Shown here: in pieces, positions 3,846-11,652 of the stretch
Layout: each line of letters opens with the position of its first letter
How positions within the stretch are numbered: the stretch's first letter is position 1
NCBI GenBank assembly: GCA_050010515.1
Contig: JBEKKX010000054.1
Location: 1 to 11,748, forward strand
Length of the DNA: 11,748 nucleotides
Reading direction: 5' to 3'
DNA from: Candidatus Bathyarchaeia archaeon
GTDB lineage: Archaea > Thermoproteota > Bathyarchaeia > Bathyarchaeales > Bathycorpusculaceae
The notes under the pieces: generated by a model
Databases searched by the model: none
What the model was told of the DNA's origin: nothing
Seen by the model: the letters and a program-made list of their open reading frames with translations, nothing else
Translations under genes and position numbers: made by a program

Positions 3846-4127
3846 CTAAGGGCTTTCCTTGTGGAGAAGGTGTTCAATTTCTTTTCTTTCCACGTTTTTT
3901 ATGAGTAGCTTTTTCTGTCTTGAGGTTGCTCCAAAGACTATTTCGACTTTTGTGTGCAAAAGCTTGGTGAATTCCTTTATTATTTCCGTGTTTACTTTGC
4001 CTTTAACTGGTTCCTCGGTGCAATGGACGATGATTTCGTCGCCATCACATTCTATTTGGCATTTAGGAGAGTTTGGTTTTACAAAAATTGAGATGATGAC
4101 GCCGTCTTTGGTTTGGATGATGCTCAT
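3846..4127 (-). CDS. DUF167 / UPF0235 (YggU-like) protein
   Basis: IFVKPNS...VHCTEEPVKGKVNTEIIKEF...VEIVFGATSRQKKLLI signature; ATG overlaps the topoisomerase stop (ATGA at 4127-4124). Confidence 0.92.
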   Translation of the reverse strand: MSIIQTKDGVIISIFVKPNSPKCQIECDGDEIIVHCTEEPVKGKVNTEIIKEFTKLLHTKVEIVFGATSRQKKLLIKNVERKEIEHLLHKESP

Positions 4128-5758
4128 GCGGTTATGCACTCGGCTGCTTGTGCTTTGCTGCTCTGCAGTGCCCAGCTAAACTTGTTTCTCAAGGTTTTGG
4201 GGTAGAATTTTTCTATGTCGAACTTGACTTTTTTTGCCCATTTCACGTAAGCCGTCGGGTCAATGTACGATTTCAGCGATGTGCCCAAGTTGTACTCTTT
4301 GGTTAGCTTTGTCAATTCAATATCAAGCTTAGCTTTCTCTATTCTGGTCTCGAGCGATTGGGTTTTTTTGCCTGCAGCCTTTTTTACTTCAAGCTGCTGC
4401 TCAAGTGCTTTGAGGTTGGCTTCTTTTTTGGCTAAGCGCTGGTCAAAGGTTGGCGGAATCTTTCTCTTGTGGTTTGCCACTTCAGCAACTTTATAATTAG
4501 CCATTTTTGCAGCGTAAGTCTTTTTGTAGTCTGGGTCATCCTTTACTATTCCGCTTTTTTCGAGTTCTTCTCTAACTGTTTTTGTGCATCTCCAAGTGCG
4601 GAAAACTTTAGCGGTTAATTTGGGCATTTTCTCGGAGAGGAAACGTGAAACCTTTTTGGAGTCGACGCCTTCGAAGAGGTATTCTTTGCTTGTTTCCATG
4701 TAGTGTTGGATGTTTCGGATGACTTCTGGTGGGGCTTTGACGTTTTTTATCCATCTGACGCTGTCTTTGCCGAGGAAGTCGAAGTGTATGGTGTCGCCTT
4801 CTATTTTGATGTGCTCTGCCCGAAGCGTTATGGCGCCTACTGTGTCGGCTTCACCTGGGTCTTTTTCGTCGCCAACCCTCATGTTCGGCTCTAAAATAAG
4901 CCACGACACAGTTGCAACCTTGCGTCTTGCATCATCTTCATCGTTGAGGTTTTTGAGGATGTGCTGTTCAATTGCCTTAATTTGTTTGCCTAAGGTTTCG
5001 GCTTTCTGGAACTTCTCTTTCTCACGGTTCTGTTTAAGGAAGGCTGTATCGGAGAACCAGACGTACTTGATTTTGCCTGTTAGCTTGTCTTCCCATTTAG
5101 CCACGTACATCTTGTCAGGTTCCCAAACCACACCTTTCCAATGTCCCGATGGAACAGGTGCATCAGGCGGAAGGTTTAGAATTATGTCTTCTTCATTTGG
5201 GCCGTCTTTCCATTTTCCACGCTGCGGATGGTCACCGCGACCGGCAAAAAGGCATGACGGCTCTGAAGTCCAGTTGGCAATCTCAAGTTTTTGTCCGTCA
5301 ACTTCGGCGTAACCATATTTTTCTTTGAATTCTAAGCGTTTAGCTTTGCGCTCTTCAGCTTGCTGCTTTTTCACTTCTTTGGTTAATGCTTCTTTTTTTG
5401 CTTTTTCCTGGTTAACGAAGTTAATAATTTGCGTAAAGTCAATTTCTTCACTGAGCGGGTGGTTTCCGTTGTTTAATGTTGCAAGGGCATCTAAGCTGGT
5501 TAAGTATTTTGAACAGAAAGCATCCAAGAAACTTGCTGAAGGGTTATCTTTTTTCAGTTGCCCAAGGAATTCCCGCATAAAATTCTTCTTAAAAACATTA
5601 TCTGGCGGAGACACGGTTGACAATGATTTTCTTATCCATGCAACCGCCATCTGCTCACTTTTAGGCGTCAGCTTTACCGTCTGACCGTTAAGCTTTATGC
5701 TGAAGCCTTTGTAATCGTAAACTGGAACGAATATGCCGTTATGCTTCAAACTTTTCAT
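4124..5758 (-). CDS. Eukaryote-like DNA topoisomerase IB
   Basis: LKHNG N-terminus, EPSCLFAGRGDHPQRGKWK, catalytic pentad in MRVGDEKD (R), FDFLGKDSVRW (K), LTAKVFRTW (R), ANHKR (H) and LGTSLKSYIDP (Y); short coiled-coil linker; alternative start at 5770. Confidence 0.97.
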   Translation of the reverse strand: MKSLKHNGIFVPVYDYKGFSIKLNGQTVKLTPKSEQMAVAWIRKSLSTVSPPDNVFKKNFMREFLGQLKKDNPSASFLDAFCSKYLTSLDALATLNNGNHPLSEEIDFTQIINFVNQEKAKKEALTKEVKKQQAEERKAKRLEFKEKYGYAEVDGQKLEIANWTSEPSCLFAGRGDHPQRGKWKDGPNEEDIILNLPPDAPVPSGHWKGVVWEPDKMYVAKWEDKLTGKIKYVWFSDTAFLKQNREKEKFQKAETLGKQIKAIEQHILKNLNDEDDARRKVATVSWLILEPNMRVGDEKDPGEADTVGAITLRAEHIKIEGDTIHFDFLGKDSVRWIKNVKAPPEVIRNIQHYMETSKEYLFEGVDSKKVSRFLSEKMPKLTAKVFRTWRCTKTVREELEKSGIVKDDPDYKKTYAAKMANYKVAEVANHKRKIPPTFDQRLAKKEANLKALEQQLEVKKAAGKKTQSLETRIEKAKLDIELTKLTKEYNLGTSLKSYIDPTAYVKWAKKVKFDIEKFYPKTLRNKFSWALQSSKAQAAECITA

Positions 5759-5927
5759 AACGTGTCTCATTCACTAAACCTCAATTACCAATGGCAAACG
5801 ACTTTTCACAGTTTAAGCCTTTGCCAAATATTTAACTATGCATGTTTTTTGCTTTTCGCTGTTAAGGCTGCAACTTTCTATTACCTCTTTCCGAGGCTTA
5901 AAAACATTAAGCAATAATTTCAGGTAA

Positions 5928-9051: not shown

Positions 9052-9255
9052 GAACTTGCGATTAGAAGGGAATTAGCCCTAAAAAGATTGCGTAGATAAT
9101 CGCTAGAATTAATAGCGCTCGTTATTTCCATTTTTCACTGTTTATGTTACGGGTTAAGCTTTGCCTTAATCGAAAAACAACGCTTTAATATAAAAAACAT
9201 GGTTTAATACTTAATAAAAAACCAAAAATACGCAATGAATCCGCATAGCTATAGC

Positions 9256-9275
9256 AAAAATAGGAAACTATTTTT
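9256..9275 (-). terminator. AT-rich hairpin downstream of the predicted omegaRNA guide
   Basis: AAAAATAG-GAAA-CTATTTTT perfect 8-bp inverted repeat about 26 nt beyond the element end. Confidence 0.4.
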
Positions 9276-9281
9276 CACAAC

Positions 9282-9455
9282 CGATACTGCGCTAATTATG
9301 CGGTTCTATTAGCTCTTCAGGTGTTTTGTCAAAGGTTTTAACCTTCGGCTGCAAGAGCTACTGGTTCGCATCGACTCTTAGGATTAGGCATTTGTCGTTC
9401 CTTTACCATTGCTTCACTTGCGAACCCGTCAGGCTTGAACCTCAAGCCTCGCTGG
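9282..9455 (-). ncRNA. Predicted omegaRNA (reRNA) scaffold plus guide, overlapping the tnpB 3' end
   Basis: Adjacent and nested complementary segments: 9431-9438/9442-9449, 9363-9370/9419-9426, 9310-9317/9353-9360, 9332-9336/9341-9345; position typical of TnpB omegaRNAs; boundaries approximate. Confidence 0.7.
9294..9301. repeat. 8-bp direct repeat AATTATGC, copy 1 (candidate target-site duplication)
   Basis: Identical to 10587-10594; abuts the element end GGTTCT. Confidence 0.7.
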
Positions 9456-10495
9456 ACAATATTGTAGGCTGCGTTCTCATCTCTGTCCATAAGACGATTA
9501 CAGTGCGAACAGTAGACGTTCCTCTCTGCACATTCGGTTATAGGTGAACCACATGTCGAACAGACTGAGGAAGTCTTCTGAGGCTTAACGTAAATTACTG
9601 GGATTCCTTCCCAAGCTGCTTTATACTCAATTTGCCTTTGAAGCTCATAAAAGCTCCAACTGTTAAGCCTTGAACGGTACTCTTTGCCTTGCCCATTTCC
9701 TTTCCGATAAAGCTTGCGTATGCCCTTTAGGTCTTCCATAACTATGCCCTGTTTAGTGGCGACGGCTTGTTGTACAATTACTTTGCTGACAAGGTGAAGT
9801 CGTTGATTAACTCTGTTGCTCTGTTTCTCGCCATATTTGCCGAAAACCTTCTTTATAATTCTAGAATCATTCCGTTTAAAATGAGATTTCACCGTTCTAT
9901 AGACAGCTTTGATTCTTGAGGCTTCTGAAAGATCATAAACCTGTGTTTGCCCGTTTAGAGTAGCGGTTGTTACATTATCGAGGTTGCGATCTATTCCAAT
10001 TAGCCCCATGAAGGGCATCTTGTTCGCAGTTTCTTTCGAAAAAGCTATTGATAATGTGCAAGCATTCAAAGAAACGCTTCTAACGGCATAGCTCGAAATA
10101 ACAGTTTTCGTATGCTTATTCAAAGGAATGTATATGCCTTTGTTGCGTTTGCCGACTAATCTTAGGTTTTGCCCCATGATTCTGAAACCGTAGCAGTCTG
10201 TTAACATTCTTTTGGTTGCAAACGGTTTTTTCGCTTGTGGATGCTGTTTGAGGGTTTTTTTGTAGTTGCTGATTATTCCGACTGCTTTGCTGATAGCTGT
10301 TAAGCGATAGTATGTTGGAACATTGTATCTTGCAAGTTGATGATACGCTTTCTTGTTGAGTGATTGTTTAGAGGTGACGTTTTCTGCTATCCCTATGCGT
10401 ATGCAGTCGTTGAGCATTTTTCTAAAATCGTCTATTAAATGGAGGATTTCAGGCGTTGGAACATAGTTTTGTTTTACTGCCTTAATTGCTAGCAC
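9338..10495 (-). CDS. tnpB: RNA-guided endonuclease TnpB
   Basis: RuvC-I GIDRNL, RuvC-II IVMEDL, WSFYELQRQIEYKAAWEG, zinc finger TSSVCSTCG...YCSHC, RuvC-III DRDENAAYNI; GTG start at 10495 about 33 nt below the TATA box. Confidence 0.96.
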   Translation of the reverse strand: MLAIKAVKQNYVPTPEILHLIDDFRKMLNDCIRIGIAENVTSKQSLNKKAYHQLARYNVPTYYRLTAISKAVGIISNYKKTLKQHPQAKKPFATKRMLTDCYGFRIMGQNLRLVGKRNKGIYIPLNKHTKTVISSYAVRSVSLNACTLSIAFSKETANKMPFMGLIGIDRNLDNVTTATLNGQTQVYDLSEASRIKAVYRTVKSHFKRNDSRIIKKVFGKYGEKQSNRVNQRLHLVSKVIVQQAVATKQGIVMEDLKGIRKLYRKGNGQGKEYRSRLNSWSFYELQRQIEYKAAWEGIPVIYVKPQKTSSVCSTCGSPITECAERNVYCSHCNRLMDRDENAAYNIVQRGLRFKPDGFASEAMVKERQMPNPKSRCEPVALAAEG

Positions 10496-10528
10496 AGCTA
10501 TTACGCAAGCATTTTGTCTATTTAACAA

Positions 10529-10537
10529 TTATATAAG
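10529..10537 (-). promoter_or_regulatory. TATA box of tnpB, inside the element
   Basis: CTTATATAA on the minus strand upstream of GTG 10495. Confidence 0.6.
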
Positions 10538-10586
10538 AACCCGAACATTAACTAGTAAAAACAGCCACTCAAGCGTTAACGGTACC

Positions 10587-10594
10587 AATTATGC
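10587..10594. repeat. 8-bp direct repeat AATTATGC, copy 2 (candidate target-site duplication)
   Basis: Identical to 9294-9301; abuts GGTACC at the element end. Confidence 0.7.
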
Positions 10595-10606
10595 AAAACT
10601 TTATTA
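10593..10606 (+). promoter_or_regulatory. BRE/TATA promoter of the 10647 gene
   Basis: GCAAAA-CTTTATTA about 40 nt upstream of TTG 10647. Confidence 0.55.
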
Positions 10607-10646
10607 CAGCGCCAAACGTTTTGGATTCTAAAAAGGTAGAAGTAAA

Positions 10647-11570
10647 TTGAAATTCGGCACATACATGTTTGAAGCAAAGAAAGTTTCAGGCTTCGACTTT
10701 GACCTTTTCCGCGTGAAACCAGAAGTAGGCAGACGATTACCACCACAACCTGACATGCATAGCAACATTGCGATTTTCGGAGACAACGTTACTGCTCGTA
10801 ATCATCCAGATTGGATTTCACAATCAGACCTAGGTCCTGCATGGAGAACAAACGACAACTTCAATGTTCGCTGGGACATTCTCTGTGCAACCCAACCAGA
10901 ACACCGCGCAGAACAACTAGATTACATCGAAGACGTCGCTAGGAAAAGCCCAGGAATATGGCTAAACAGCATCCACTTCGCAGACCATGGACACTGCGTA
11001 TGCCCGCGTTGTAAGGAACTCCATGAAAAAAGCGGCTTAAGCTGGTATGAATGGCGAAGAAAAGAAATCACCGATTACATGGCGCAAGTAAGCGAACGAG
11101 TACGCGACCGAGCCAAGAAAAAATTTGTCATCGGTGTTCTTCCAGACCCAGTTACCAACTATGAACGTTTCGGAGTTAACTTTGATGATCTGGCCCCGCT
11201 CACAGACGAATTCCTCGTAGTCATGTTCAGCAAAAACTACGCTACACCGTGGTATTGGGAAATGCTCACCCGTAACTTCAAGAAACTCTTAAAAGACGTA
11301 CCTCTCAACATTGCATTGTACGTTATCGGTCCAGGCGACGACCCAAGAGAAACGCCAACCACAAGTGAACTCTTAACAGTATCAGTCCGCATGGCACGCG
11401 CAGGAGTAGACAATATTCTTTACTTAACCGACAAAGCAAAGCAAATGCAGGATTTCCAGAAAGCTGCAGTAGCTCAGACTGATGTTCGAGAGCGTTTGAA
11501 GAGCTATGGTGGCAAACAAGGCCAAGAAGTTCTTGACTTAGTTACAAGCTGGGAAAAGATCGTAGAATAA
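10647..11570 (+). CDS. Uncharacterised glycoside-hydrolase-like TIM-barrel protein with a CxCxxC motif
   Basis: ARNHPDW, LCATQPEHR, GIWLNSIHF, HCVCPRC, WYEWRRKEITDYM and FGVNFDDLA patterns resemble GHL10/GH42-like barrels; the family assignment is tentative. Confidence 0.6.
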   Translation: MKFGTYMFEAKKVSGFDFDLFRVKPEVGRRLPPQPDMHSNIAIFGDNVTARNHPDWISQSDLGPAWRTNDNFNVRWDILCATQPEHRAEQLDYIEDVARKSPGIWLNSIHFADHGHCVCPRCKELHEKSGLSWYEWRRKEITDYMAQVSERVRDRAKKKFVIGVLPDPVTNYERFGVNFDDLAPLTDEFLVVMFSKNYATPWYWEMLTRNFKKLLKDVPLNIALYVIGPGDDPRETPTTSELLTVSVRMARAGVDNILYLTDKAKQMQDFQKAAVAQTDVRERLKSYGGKQGQEVLDLVTSWEKIVE

Positions 11571-11652
11571 GCCTCATAAAAACCGTTACATTGCAGGCAT
11601 GAGTGGTGTAAAACCACCAGGCTGCCCTTTTTATTAAAACTTGACGAGAATA

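What the first reader, a model, noticed from the sequence alone, without database searches (positions are those of the whole stretch)
9294..10594. Solo TnpB enclosed by IS6-like terminal inverted repeats and an 8-bp target-site duplication
Seen: the tnpB unit is bounded by GGTTCTATTAGCTCTT and GGTACCGTTAACGCTT (inverted, 11/16 identical, both starting GGT). Each is directly abutted by AATTATGC, and there is no tnpA. Established: IS200/IS605 (Y1) and IS607 (serine recombinase) elements, the usual TnpB carriers, lack TIRs and do not make such duplications. IS6-family DDE elements have short TIRs such as GGTTCTGTT (IS257/ISS1) and make 8-bp duplications. Inference: this is a non-autonomous RNA-guided-nuclease element mobilised in trans by an IS6-type DDE transposase, a prokaryotic parallel to DDE-associated Fanzors. 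The reconstructed empty site (minus strand AAGTTTT-GCATAATT-AGCGCAG) would be a T-rich TAM plus a perfect guide match.
Basis: partly seen in the sequence, partly recalled or inferred. Interest (0 to 1): 0.9.

Follow-up and report, generated by a model that had tools for sequence, protein, structure and literature searches.

The report
TnpB riding an IS6-type transposon
A gene for an RNA-guided DNA cutter (TnpB) sits in a small archaeal jumping element whose ends and 8-base footprint are those of IS6-type cut/copy transposons rather than of TnpB's usual carriers, so it is probably moved by a transposase encoded elsewhere.

Summary
A 1285-bp element (9302-10586) carries only tnpB. Its imperfect inverted ends both start GGT, and AATTATGC abuts each end. 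A relative with 95%-identical flanks has the exact empty site with one 8-mer, and a peat metagenome holds the same joint.

Of 103 homologous tnpB loci in the same archaeal class, 22 have GGTTCTGT-type inverted ends with a perfect, different 8-bp duplication, and 6 more match 7 of 8. Three MITEs share these ends. The same ends bound 2.2-3.6 kb elements that encode a SWIM + IS240-DDE transposase scoring above NCBIfam's IS6 cut-off. The genome has no Y1 or serine TnpA. It has one IS6-type element with similar ends and its own 8-bp duplication.

Two further points emerged. The right end doubles as the last ωRNA stem. A TT[D] motif lies 5' of the left duplication in 27 of 28 elements but is not mirrored on the right, as a TAM would be.

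Caveats: DDE-associated TnpBs with inverted ends were published in 2023, though IS6 was not named where I could read. Mobilisation is not shown. The resident transposase is N-terminally truncated.

The parts
9282..9301 (-). Predicted ωRNA guide template. It is the right copy of the 8-bp duplication (9294-9301) plus the next 12 flank bases, read on the minus strand.
   Evidence: Position immediately 3' of the right end. It is identical to the empty site of G030. The guide role is inferred from how known TnpB systems work and was not tested.
9294..9301 (.). Target-site duplication, copy next to the right end (AATTATGC on the plus strand).
9302..9323 (-). Right-end terminal inverted repeat (plus strand GGTTCTATTAGCTCTTCAGGTG).
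   Evidence: It aligns with the invariant ...AGAACC terminus of 27 homologous elements. Position 7 is A here and G in the other 27.
9310..9360 (-). Terminal ωRNA hairpin. Its 3' arm is made of inverted-repeat bases (UAGCUCUU...AAGAGCUA).
   Evidence: Minimum-free-energy fold. In 22 of 27 family members the inverted-repeat bases -14 to -8 pair upstream, against 2-12 of 27 in 20 shuffles, and 11 different stem sequences are seen.
9432..9448 (-). Conserved ωRNA hairpin inside the 3' end of tnpB (GGCUU-GAGGUUC-AAGCC).
   Evidence: 6 pairs, 4 with compensatory changes (for example GC 14 / CG 12), and an invariant loop GAGGTTC.
9338..10528 (-). tnpB ORF, 396 aa from the TTG start. The likelier start is the GTG at 10495.
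   Evidence: RuvC residues E265 and D350 align with solved TnpB/Cas12f chains. D180 and the CxxC...CxxC zinc finger were identified by motif only.
10529..10536 (-). TTATATAA, a TATA-box-like motif upstream of tnpB inside the element.
   Evidence: Read. It is conserved in the G020 homolog. The promoter role is inferred.
10565..10586 (-). Left-end terminal inverted repeat (minus strand GGTACCGTTAACGCTTGAGTGG).
10587..10594 (.). Target-site duplication, copy next to the left end.
10595..10606 (-). Target or TAM-like motif (minus strand TAATAAAGTTTT) directly 5' of the left duplication.
   Evidence: Family-wide motif T(-9)A(-8)A(-7)...T(-3)T(-2)D(-1) on the left side only.

Best explanation
This is a non-autonomous derivative of an archaeal IS6-type DDE transposon. 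It has kept the two terminal inverted repeats and carries a tnpB/ωRNA (OMEGA) module in place of a transposase.

Insertion (shown): it inserted by a staggered 8-bp cut into the divergent promoter region between a P-type ATPase gene and the gene starting at 10647. This happened after the lineage split from its 95%-identical relative.

Mobilisation (inferred): it is moved in trans by a roughly 380-aa SWIM/Zn-ribbon + IS240-DDE transposase of the kind that bounds itself with the same ends.

ωRNA (shown): the ωRNA scaffold overlaps the 3' end of tnpB, and its last stem is built from the right inverted repeat.

Guide and target (inferred): read-through transcription would make a guide equal to the 8-bp duplication plus the right flank. 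The TT[D] motif that sits 5' of the left duplication in nearly all family members would serve as the TAM. TnpB would then be programmed against the element's own empty allele, and against neither junction of the occupied site.
For: - Empty site: a single 8-mer in G030, and a metagenome joint that skips 1293 bases.
- Family-wide ends and duplications: 103 tnpB loci were scanned (at least 4 places were fetched twice). Of these, 22 have GGTTCTGT-type ends and a perfect 8-bp direct repeat, each repeat different. Six more match 7 of 8. L025 and L165 have 9-bp and 7-bp repeats.
- MITEs: 3 of 3 examined with these ends have 8/8 duplications.
- Autonomous elements with the same ends: L084 (a perfect 20/20 inverted repeat GGTTCTGTTAACTTGACGGG), L086 and L090 encode SWIM + PF13610 proteins. 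L080/L084 scores 136.2 bits and L086 131.5 bits on NF033587 (IS6), cut-off 125.
- IS6-type loci with GG-start ends and 8/8 duplications: 12 of 30 in family f33 and 9 of 30 in the window's genus.
- The published bacterial IS6/IS26 end consensus GGTTCTGTTGCAAA, with GG and G7 conserved and an 8-bp duplication (PMC6807381, passages read), matches the family ends over the first 9 bases.
- The genome has no Y1 or serine recombinase but has one IS6-type element.
- ωRNA: a hairpin with compensatory changes and a terminal hairpin that uses inverted-repeat bases.
- Left-side motif: T at -2 in 27 of 28 elements, against the mirrored A at +2 in 7 of 28 (Fisher p = 3e-8).
Against: - No mobilisation was observed. 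The element is single-copy in its genome, and tnpB occurs in only 2 of 120 genomes of the genus.
- The window's two ends match each other at only 11 of 16 positions. Its right end has A at the otherwise invariant G7.
- The resident IS6-type transposase is a 242-aa form that lacks the SWIM/Zn-ribbon N-terminus of its 372-aa relatives. It scores 112.2 bits, below the IS6 cut-off of 125.
- All 5 genomes examined of genus g94 carry tnpB elements with these ends and duplications, yet none has a PF13610 hit (G176; G305, G279, G170 and G373). These are 80-95% complete MAGs.
- About 60 of the 103 loci gave no convincing pair of ends in my scan. At least 6 have good ends but no duplication (L026, L028, L039, L148, L164, L168).
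- Autonomous IS6-type elements also tend to have T at -2 (25 of 32 assessable sides, counted by eye). Part of the motif may therefore be the transposase's own target preference rather than a TAM.
- IS6/IS26 elements are described as copy-in transposons that do not excise (PMC7986276). That leaves no excision scar for TnpB to repair.
Confidence: 0.85

Rival explanations
1. It is an ordinary IS200/IS605 (IS1341-group) or IS607 solo-tnpB element moved by a Y1 or serine TnpA. On this reading the inverted ends and the 8-mer are chance, or are cleavage-site mimicry.
For: TnpB is usually carried by these families (PMC10691335, section 9 read). NCBIfam gives weak sub-threshold hits to IS200_TnpB (59.4 bits, cut-off 425) and IS607_TnpB (47.1 bits, cut-off 350).
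Against: Twenty-two independent insertions have different perfect 8-bp repeats abutting inverted ends. The empty site retains exactly one 8-mer. MITEs and DDE elements share the ends. No PF01797 or PF00239 hit exists in the genome.
Confidence: 0.02
2. The element is moved by a DDE transposase of another family that also gives GG ends and 8-bp duplications (for example IS1- or ISL3-like), not by the IS6-type enzyme.
For: The long transposases also give sub-threshold IS1 hits (66.1 and 45.1 bits, cut-off 100) and an IS1/IS1595 zinc-ribbon hit. Five g94 genomes with many tnpB elements have no PF13610 hit. Harmer and Hall argue that archaeal 'IS6' elements may not belong to the IS6/IS26 family (PMC6807381).
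Against: The only transposase genes found inside elements bounded by these ends are the SWIM + IS240-DDE proteins, and their best and above-cut-off family is IS6. I did not search g94 genomes for other transposase families.
Confidence: 0.06
3. The window's copy is a stranded relic. It arrived once by the IS6-type route but can no longer move, and tnpB is either decaying or kept for a host function.
For: It is single-copy. The right end has A at invariant position 7. The two ends match at only 11 of 16 positions. The resident transposase is truncated. The only congener homolog (G020) has an internal TGA and a degenerate left end. No RNA contig lay on the element in the one RNA run laid.
Against: The ORF is open over 396 aa with the catalytic E and D aligned and the zinc finger present. 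The terminal ωRNA hairpin is intact, with compensated stem changes. The insertion is young, being absent at 95% flank identity.
Confidence: 0.4

Closest known systems
DDE-transposase-associated TnpB branches (DDE-1 to DDE-6) of Altae-Tran et al. 2023 (PMC10691335; section 9 and passages read)
   Same: TnpB sits inside transposons with inverted terminal repeats. The tnpB 3' end lies within 250 bp of a transposon end. Solo TnpBs with the same ends as transposase-bearing copies are inferred to be mobilised in trans.
   Different: The main text names only IS630. A 2026 review (PMC13565253, passages read) lists the DDE partners as ISL2, IS630 and IS1031, and IS6 is not named. In the present family no copy was found with tnpB and the transposase in one element.
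IS6/IS26 family and the archaeal 'IS6' elements (Harmer and Hall 2019, PMC6807381; Varani et al. 2021, PMC7986276; passages read)
   Same: The ends start GG with G at position 7. The first 9 bases equal the bacterial consensus GGTTCTGTT. The duplication is 8 bp. The partner transposase carries the IS240 DDE domain and passes NCBIfam's IS6 model.
   Different: Classical members are about 800 bp. Only one member with a passenger gene and two MITEs are recorded, and no TnpB is mentioned. The partners here are 2.2-3.6 kb, carry varied passenger ORFs, and have a SWIM + Zn-ribbon N-terminus. Whether archaeal forms belong to the family is disputed.
IS200/IS605 (IS1341 group) and IS607 solo-TnpB elements
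   Same: An RNA-guided TnpB with an ωRNA that overlaps its 3' end, and a guide taken from the flank beyond the right end.
   Different: Those families have no inverted ends and make no duplication (PMC13565253). Here both are present, and no TnpA of either type is in the genome.
Fanzor nucleases inside eukaryotic DDE transposons
   Same: A TnpB-family nuclease is a passenger of a transposon with inverted ends and duplications, and the transposon's target motif lies next to the nuclease's target.
   Different: This case is prokaryotic. Its 8-bp duplication is variable, so it would form the first 8 guide positions rather than part of the TAM.

Membership tests
TnpB (OMEGA effector) | Scores above the curated family cut-offs | tested here: met
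   PF07282: 76.7 bits, cut-off 26.3. NF040570 guided_TnpB: 121.6 bits, cut-off 100.
TnpB (OMEGA effector) | RuvC D-E-D triad and zinc finger | tested here: inconclusive
   E265 and D350 align with the E and D of solved TnpB/Cas12f chains. D180 (GIDRN) and the CxxC...CxxC finger were identified by motif only. No activity test was done.
TnpB (OMEGA effector) | Structured ωRNA at the 3' end that runs to the transposon end | tested here: met
   A hairpin in which 4 of 6 pairs are compensated. A terminal hairpin is predicted in 22 of 27 members, against 2-12 of 27 in shuffles. Transcription was not tested.
IS200/IS605 | No inverted ends, no duplication, Y1 TnpA in cis or in the genome | tested here: not met
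   Inverted ends and an 8-bp duplication are present. There is no PF01797 hit in the genome.
IS607 | Serine recombinase TnpA, no duplication | tested here: not met
   There is no PF00239 hit in the genome. An 8-bp duplication is present.
IS6-type element (non-autonomous derivative) | 8-bp target-site duplication | tested here: met
   Window. Family: 22 perfect and 6 near-perfect of 103 loci.
IS6-type element (non-autonomous derivative) | Ends start GG with G at position 7 (consensus GGTTCTGTT..., PMC6807381) | tested here: inconclusive
   The family's right ends are GGTTC(T/C)G in 27 of 28. The window's left end GGTACCG meets GG and G7. The window's right end GGTTCTA meets GG but not G7.
IS6-type element (non-autonomous derivative) | An IS6-family transposase bounded by the same ends | tested here: met
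   L084, L086 and L090 in related genomes. The own genome has an element whose end matches the window's right end at 13 of 18 positions, but its transposase is truncated.
IS6-type element (non-autonomous derivative) | Copy-in (cointegrate) transposition | not testable with these tools
   Described for IS26 (PMC7986276). Nothing here bears on the archaeal enzymes.

The most novel reading that the evidence does not exclude
A whole clade of archaeal TnpB/ωRNA modules (34-100% identical to this one) has become a dedicated passenger of IS6-type DDE transposons, with the parts fused. The right inverted repeat is also the last ωRNA stem. The variable 8-bp duplication becomes the first eight guide positions. 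The transposon's one-sided target motif (TAA-N3-4-TT[D], TATA-box-like) is also the TAM. Each insertion would therefore arm TnpB against its own empty allele. This would act as a homing drive for a transposon type thought not to excise, in populations where the empty allele is far commoner (about 40-fold in one peat metagenome).
Probability: 0.35. Interest if true: 0.82.

Novelty: new variant of a known kind. Interest (0 to 1): 0.68.

Why it matters
TnpB's accepted role is to restore IS605/IS607 elements after scarless excision. IS6-type partners would raise two problems for that role. They make 8-bp duplications, and at least in bacteria they copy in without excising. That poses the question of what an RNA-guided nuclease does for such a transposon.

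The family offers a natural test. It gives dozens of independent insertions with known empty sites, a guide that begins with the duplication, and a candidate TAM that can be read from the flanks.

It also shows that many archaeal 'IS200/IS605 TnpB' annotations may sit in DDE-type elements. The compact (about 385-396 aa) nucleases come with a defined ωRNA end and may be of practical interest.

Tried and rejected
- Rfam gathering scan of the window: 0 matches.
- Search for further copies of the element or of tnpB in the own genome: only the window's copy.
- First scans of PF13610 loci (L054-L072) for the GGYNCNGTTAAC motif or for GG-start ends within ±1500 bp found nothing. The elements turned out to be longer than the loci held. 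Loci with more flank gave the ends.
- All-against-all blastn of those loci gave no sharp shared boundaries.
- RNAalifold on the 220-nt alignment recovered only one hairpin, because the 3' part aligns poorly. I therefore folded the sequences one by one.
- RNA run X20 gave contigs only on 10631-10900, the neighbouring gene. There was none on the element, which says nothing either way.
- The roughly 1 kb of extra sequence at this site in G003, and by spacing also in G055 and G025, is not another mobile element. It is a small gene that looked Rieske-like to me by eye; I ran no family search on it.
- The idea that the TT motif is purely a TAM was weakened by seeing T at -2 beside autonomous elements too (counted by eye).
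- Literature searches for TnpB together with IS6-type ends found nothing relevant. I saw listings. I saw passages of PMC10691335, PMC13565253, PMC6807381, PMC7986276 and PMC6563490. The supplements of PMC10691335, which list the DDE branches, were closed.
- Tools not used: structure prediction, complex prediction, the search for homologous proteins, the search of protein representatives and the protein-atlas search.
Full report
**What is in the window**

- AATTATGC lies at 9294-9301.
- GGTTCTATTAGCTCTT lies at 9302-9317.
- AAGCGTTAACGGTACC lies at 10571-10586.
- AATTATGC lies again at 10587-10594.

The two ends are inverted and match at 11 of 16 positions. The chance of that at one fixed position pair is 2.9e-4.

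Between the ends lies one long ORF on the minus strand, 9338-10528, of 396 aa.
- It is a TnpB. PF07282 scores 76.7 bits against a cut-off of 26.3. NF040570 'guided_TnpB' scores 121.6 bits against a cut-off of 100.
- E265 and D350 align with the RuvC glutamate and aspartate of solved TnpB/Cas12f chains.
- D180 (GIDRN) and a CxxC...CxxC finger were identified by motif only.

The neighbouring genes are eRF1, a eukaryote-type topoisomerase IB and a P-type ATPase. These mark an archaeon. Related public records are labelled Thaumarchaeota/Nitrososphaerota.

**Is the 8-mer a real target-site duplication?**

Yes.
- The element is single-copy in its 2.38-Mb, 98.5%-complete assembly.
- In genome G030 the flanks are 95% identical to the window. 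Window 9191-9301 and window 10587-11599 match neighbouring stretches that overlap by 8 bp.
- The G030 sequence reads ...AAGTTTT GCATAATT AGCGCAG... with a single 8-mer.
- By spacing, other congeners are also empty (G046, G013, G059). In G003 an unrelated small gene fills the intergenic region, and the site still holds one copy of the core.
- In peat-metagenome run X16 a contig joins 9293 to 10587, skipping 1293 bases with 8 shared letters. Its depth is about 199, against about 5 over the element. Only 22 letters lie on the shorter side, and the flank SNPs show that it is a related strain.

**Do homologous elements end the same way?**

tnpB is rare in the genus: 2 of 120 genomes at E <= 1e-20. 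It is common elsewhere in the class: 75 of 401 genomes at E <= 1e-15.

I scanned 72 loci and 31 more from named MAGs. At least four places were fetched twice. The scan looked for the best inverted-end pair around the ORF and scored the 8 bases outside each end. It did not use the outer flanks.
- Twenty-two loci have GGTTCTGT-type ends with a perfect 8-bp direct repeat, and every repeat is different.
- Six more match 7 of 8 (listed).
- L025 and L165 have repeats of 9 and 7 bp.
- At least six have good ends but no repeat (L026, L028, L039, L148, L164, L168).
- About 60 gave no convincing ends. These are more distant subfamilies, degraded copies or contig ends.

These elements span TnpBs from 34% to 58% identity to the window's protein, so the association is old.

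Three MITEs of 351-364 bp with the same ends all have 8/8 repeats.

**Who is the transposase?**

The window's genome has no Y1 TnpA and no serine recombinase. It has one PF13610 (IS240 DDE) gene.
- That gene sits in a 2165-bp element with ends GGTTCTGTGAAGTCTTCG (17 of 18 inverted) and a perfect 8-bp repeat CTTTCACG.
- The window's right end matches this end at 13 of 18 positions, and the left end at 11 of 18.

In family f33, a pattern search for the tnpB ends found a 2272-bp element (L080/L084). Both of its ends are GGTTCTGTTAACTTGACGGG, and it holds a 394-aa ORF with a SWIM finger and PF13610.

I then scanned homologs of this protein, using loci with more flank.
- They lie in 2.2-3.6 kb elements with GG-start ends and perfect 8-bp repeats in 12 of 30 loci of f33.
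- The same holds for 9 of 30 loci in the window's own genus.
- L086 (GGTTCTGTTAAGTTGTCGGC) and L090 have ends that nearly match the tnpB elements.

On NCBIfam's IS6 model (cut-off 125) the transposases score 136.2 bits (L080), 131.5 bits (L086) and 112.2 bits (own genome).

The published bacterial IS6/IS26 consensus is GGTTCTGTTGCAAA, with GG and G7 conserved and an 8-bp duplication. The same authors doubt that archaeal members belong to the family (PMC6807381, passages).

**Caveats on the partner**
- The own-genome transposase (242 aa) begins at an internal methionine of its 372-aa relatives. It lacks the SWIM and Zn-ribbon part.
- The window's right end has A at position 7, where the other 27 right ends have G.
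- Five genomes of genus g94 have several tnpB elements with ends and duplications but no PF13610 hit: G176 and G305, G279, G170 and G373. They are 80-95% complete MAGs, in which repeats are often missing. The absence is still unexplained.
- I found no element that carries tnpB and the transposase together.

**The RNA part**

I aligned the last 220 nt of 27 duplication-verified elements. The terminus ...AGAACC, the motif GAGGTTC and other blocks are invariant.
- RNAalifold finds a hairpin around GAGGTTC, at window 9432-9448 inside the tnpB 3' end. Four of its six pairs are kept through changes on both sides.
- Single-sequence folds show a terminal hairpin whose 3' arm is made of inverted-repeat bases -14 to -8. 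This occurs in 22 of 27 sequences, with 11 different stem sequences. With the upstream part shuffled, the count is 2-12 of 27 over 20 shuffles.
- In the window the stem is UAGCUCUU/AAGAGCUA, where most relatives use GUUAAC/GUUAAC. The divergence of the window's right end is thus compensated upstream.

The right end therefore serves two purposes. This may explain why right ends are much better conserved than left ends.

**A one-sided flank motif**

In the 28 elements, the base at -2 before the left duplication is T in 27. The base at -3 is T in 20, and the base at -1 is not C in 27. The mirrored position after the right duplication is A in only 7 of 28 (Fisher p = 3e-8).

Further out there is a weak T(-9)A(-8)A(-7) signal. 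The window reads TAATAAAGTTTT. On the plus strand this is a TATA-box-like TTTATTA about 40 bp upstream of the gene that starts at 10647.

This is the position a TAM must occupy if the guide is the duplication plus the right flank.
- In the empty allele, TT[D] precedes a full guide match.
- At the left junction only 8 bases match.
- At the right junction the match is preceded by ...AACC.

Autonomous IS6-type elements also show ATAAAnnnTTG on one side, and T at -2 on 25 of 32 assessable sides (counted by eye). The motif may therefore be the transposase's own target preference, which TnpB shares, as in IS605 and IS607. I cannot separate the two.

**What is known**

Altae-Tran et al. 2023 report six DDE-associated TnpB branches, all with inverted terminal repeats. 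They also report solo TnpBs with the same ends that are inferred to move in trans. Only IS630 is named in the text (PMC10691335, section 9 read whole, passages).

A 2026 review lists the DDE partners as ISL2, IS630 and IS1031 (PMC13565253, passages).

The IS6 review records one passenger-carrying member and two MITEs, and does not mention TnpB (PMC7986276, passages).

A thaumarchaeal mobilome survey files the HUH-type elements under IS200/IS605 (PMC6563490, passages).

Whole-word searches for TnpB with IS6 gave 22 papers, none relevant by title or abstract. Searches gave nothing closer.

**Verdict**

The kind of system, TnpB as a passenger of DDE transposons, is already known. The following appear to be new:
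- the IS6-type partner;
- the 8-bp variable duplication that would seed the guide;
- the inverted repeat that doubles as an ωRNA stem;
- the one-sided target/TAM motif.

Whether this particular copy can still move is doubtful.

Noticed in passing
L023 1148-3312 (G000:C4:31607-33771): The genome's only IS6-type element is 2165 bp, with 17/18 inverted ends and an 8-bp duplication CTTTCACG. It holds an N-terminally truncated transposase (242 aa against 372 aa in relatives) and three opposite-strand ORFs of 94, 187 and 97 aa with no Pfam match.
   Followed up: partly
L086-L113 (family f33) and L223-L249 (own genus): IS6-type elements of these archaea are 2.2-3.6 kb and carry varied passenger ORFs beside the transposase. 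The IS6 review records only one passenger-carrying member. Many sit exactly 8 bp from the end of another such element, forming nested or tandem arrays.
   Followed up: partly
L151 2703-6068 (G176:C69): A 3'-truncated TnpB (the TNB domain is cut at 37 of 60 positions) runs in one open frame of 1121 aa into a full H+-pyrophosphatase (PF03030, 687.9 bits). It may be a deletion remnant, a fusion or an assembly artefact.
   Followed up: partly
L079 560-4805 (G331:C3): A 4246-bp stretch is bounded by the same GGTTCTGTTAACTT ends, without a flanking duplication. It holds several small ORFs and no transposase that I recognised.
   Followed up: no
window 10595-10606 and the left flanks of 28 family members: Insertions lie a fixed few bases from an A/T-rich, TATA-box-like motif. 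In the window this is 40 bp upstream of the gene starting at 10647. These transposons may target promoter regions.
   Followed up: partly
L008 2519-3517 (G003:C1), and by spacing G055:C3 and G025:C11: Relatives with about 90% identical flanks carry an extra small gene in this intergenic region that is absent from the window and from G030. It looked Rieske-like to me by eye; no family search was run.
   Followed up: partly
window 4124-5770 (minus strand): A eukaryote-type topoisomerase IB (PF01028, PF02919, PF14370) in an archaeon. From my own recall, this is usual for this lineage.
   Followed up: no
L024 (G020:C1), tnpB at 1501-2688: The only tnpB homolog in the same genus (64% aa identity) has one in-frame TGA. 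Its right end is intact (GGTTCTGTTAACTC), its left end is degenerate, and it has no duplication. It appears to be a decaying copy.
   Followed up: partly
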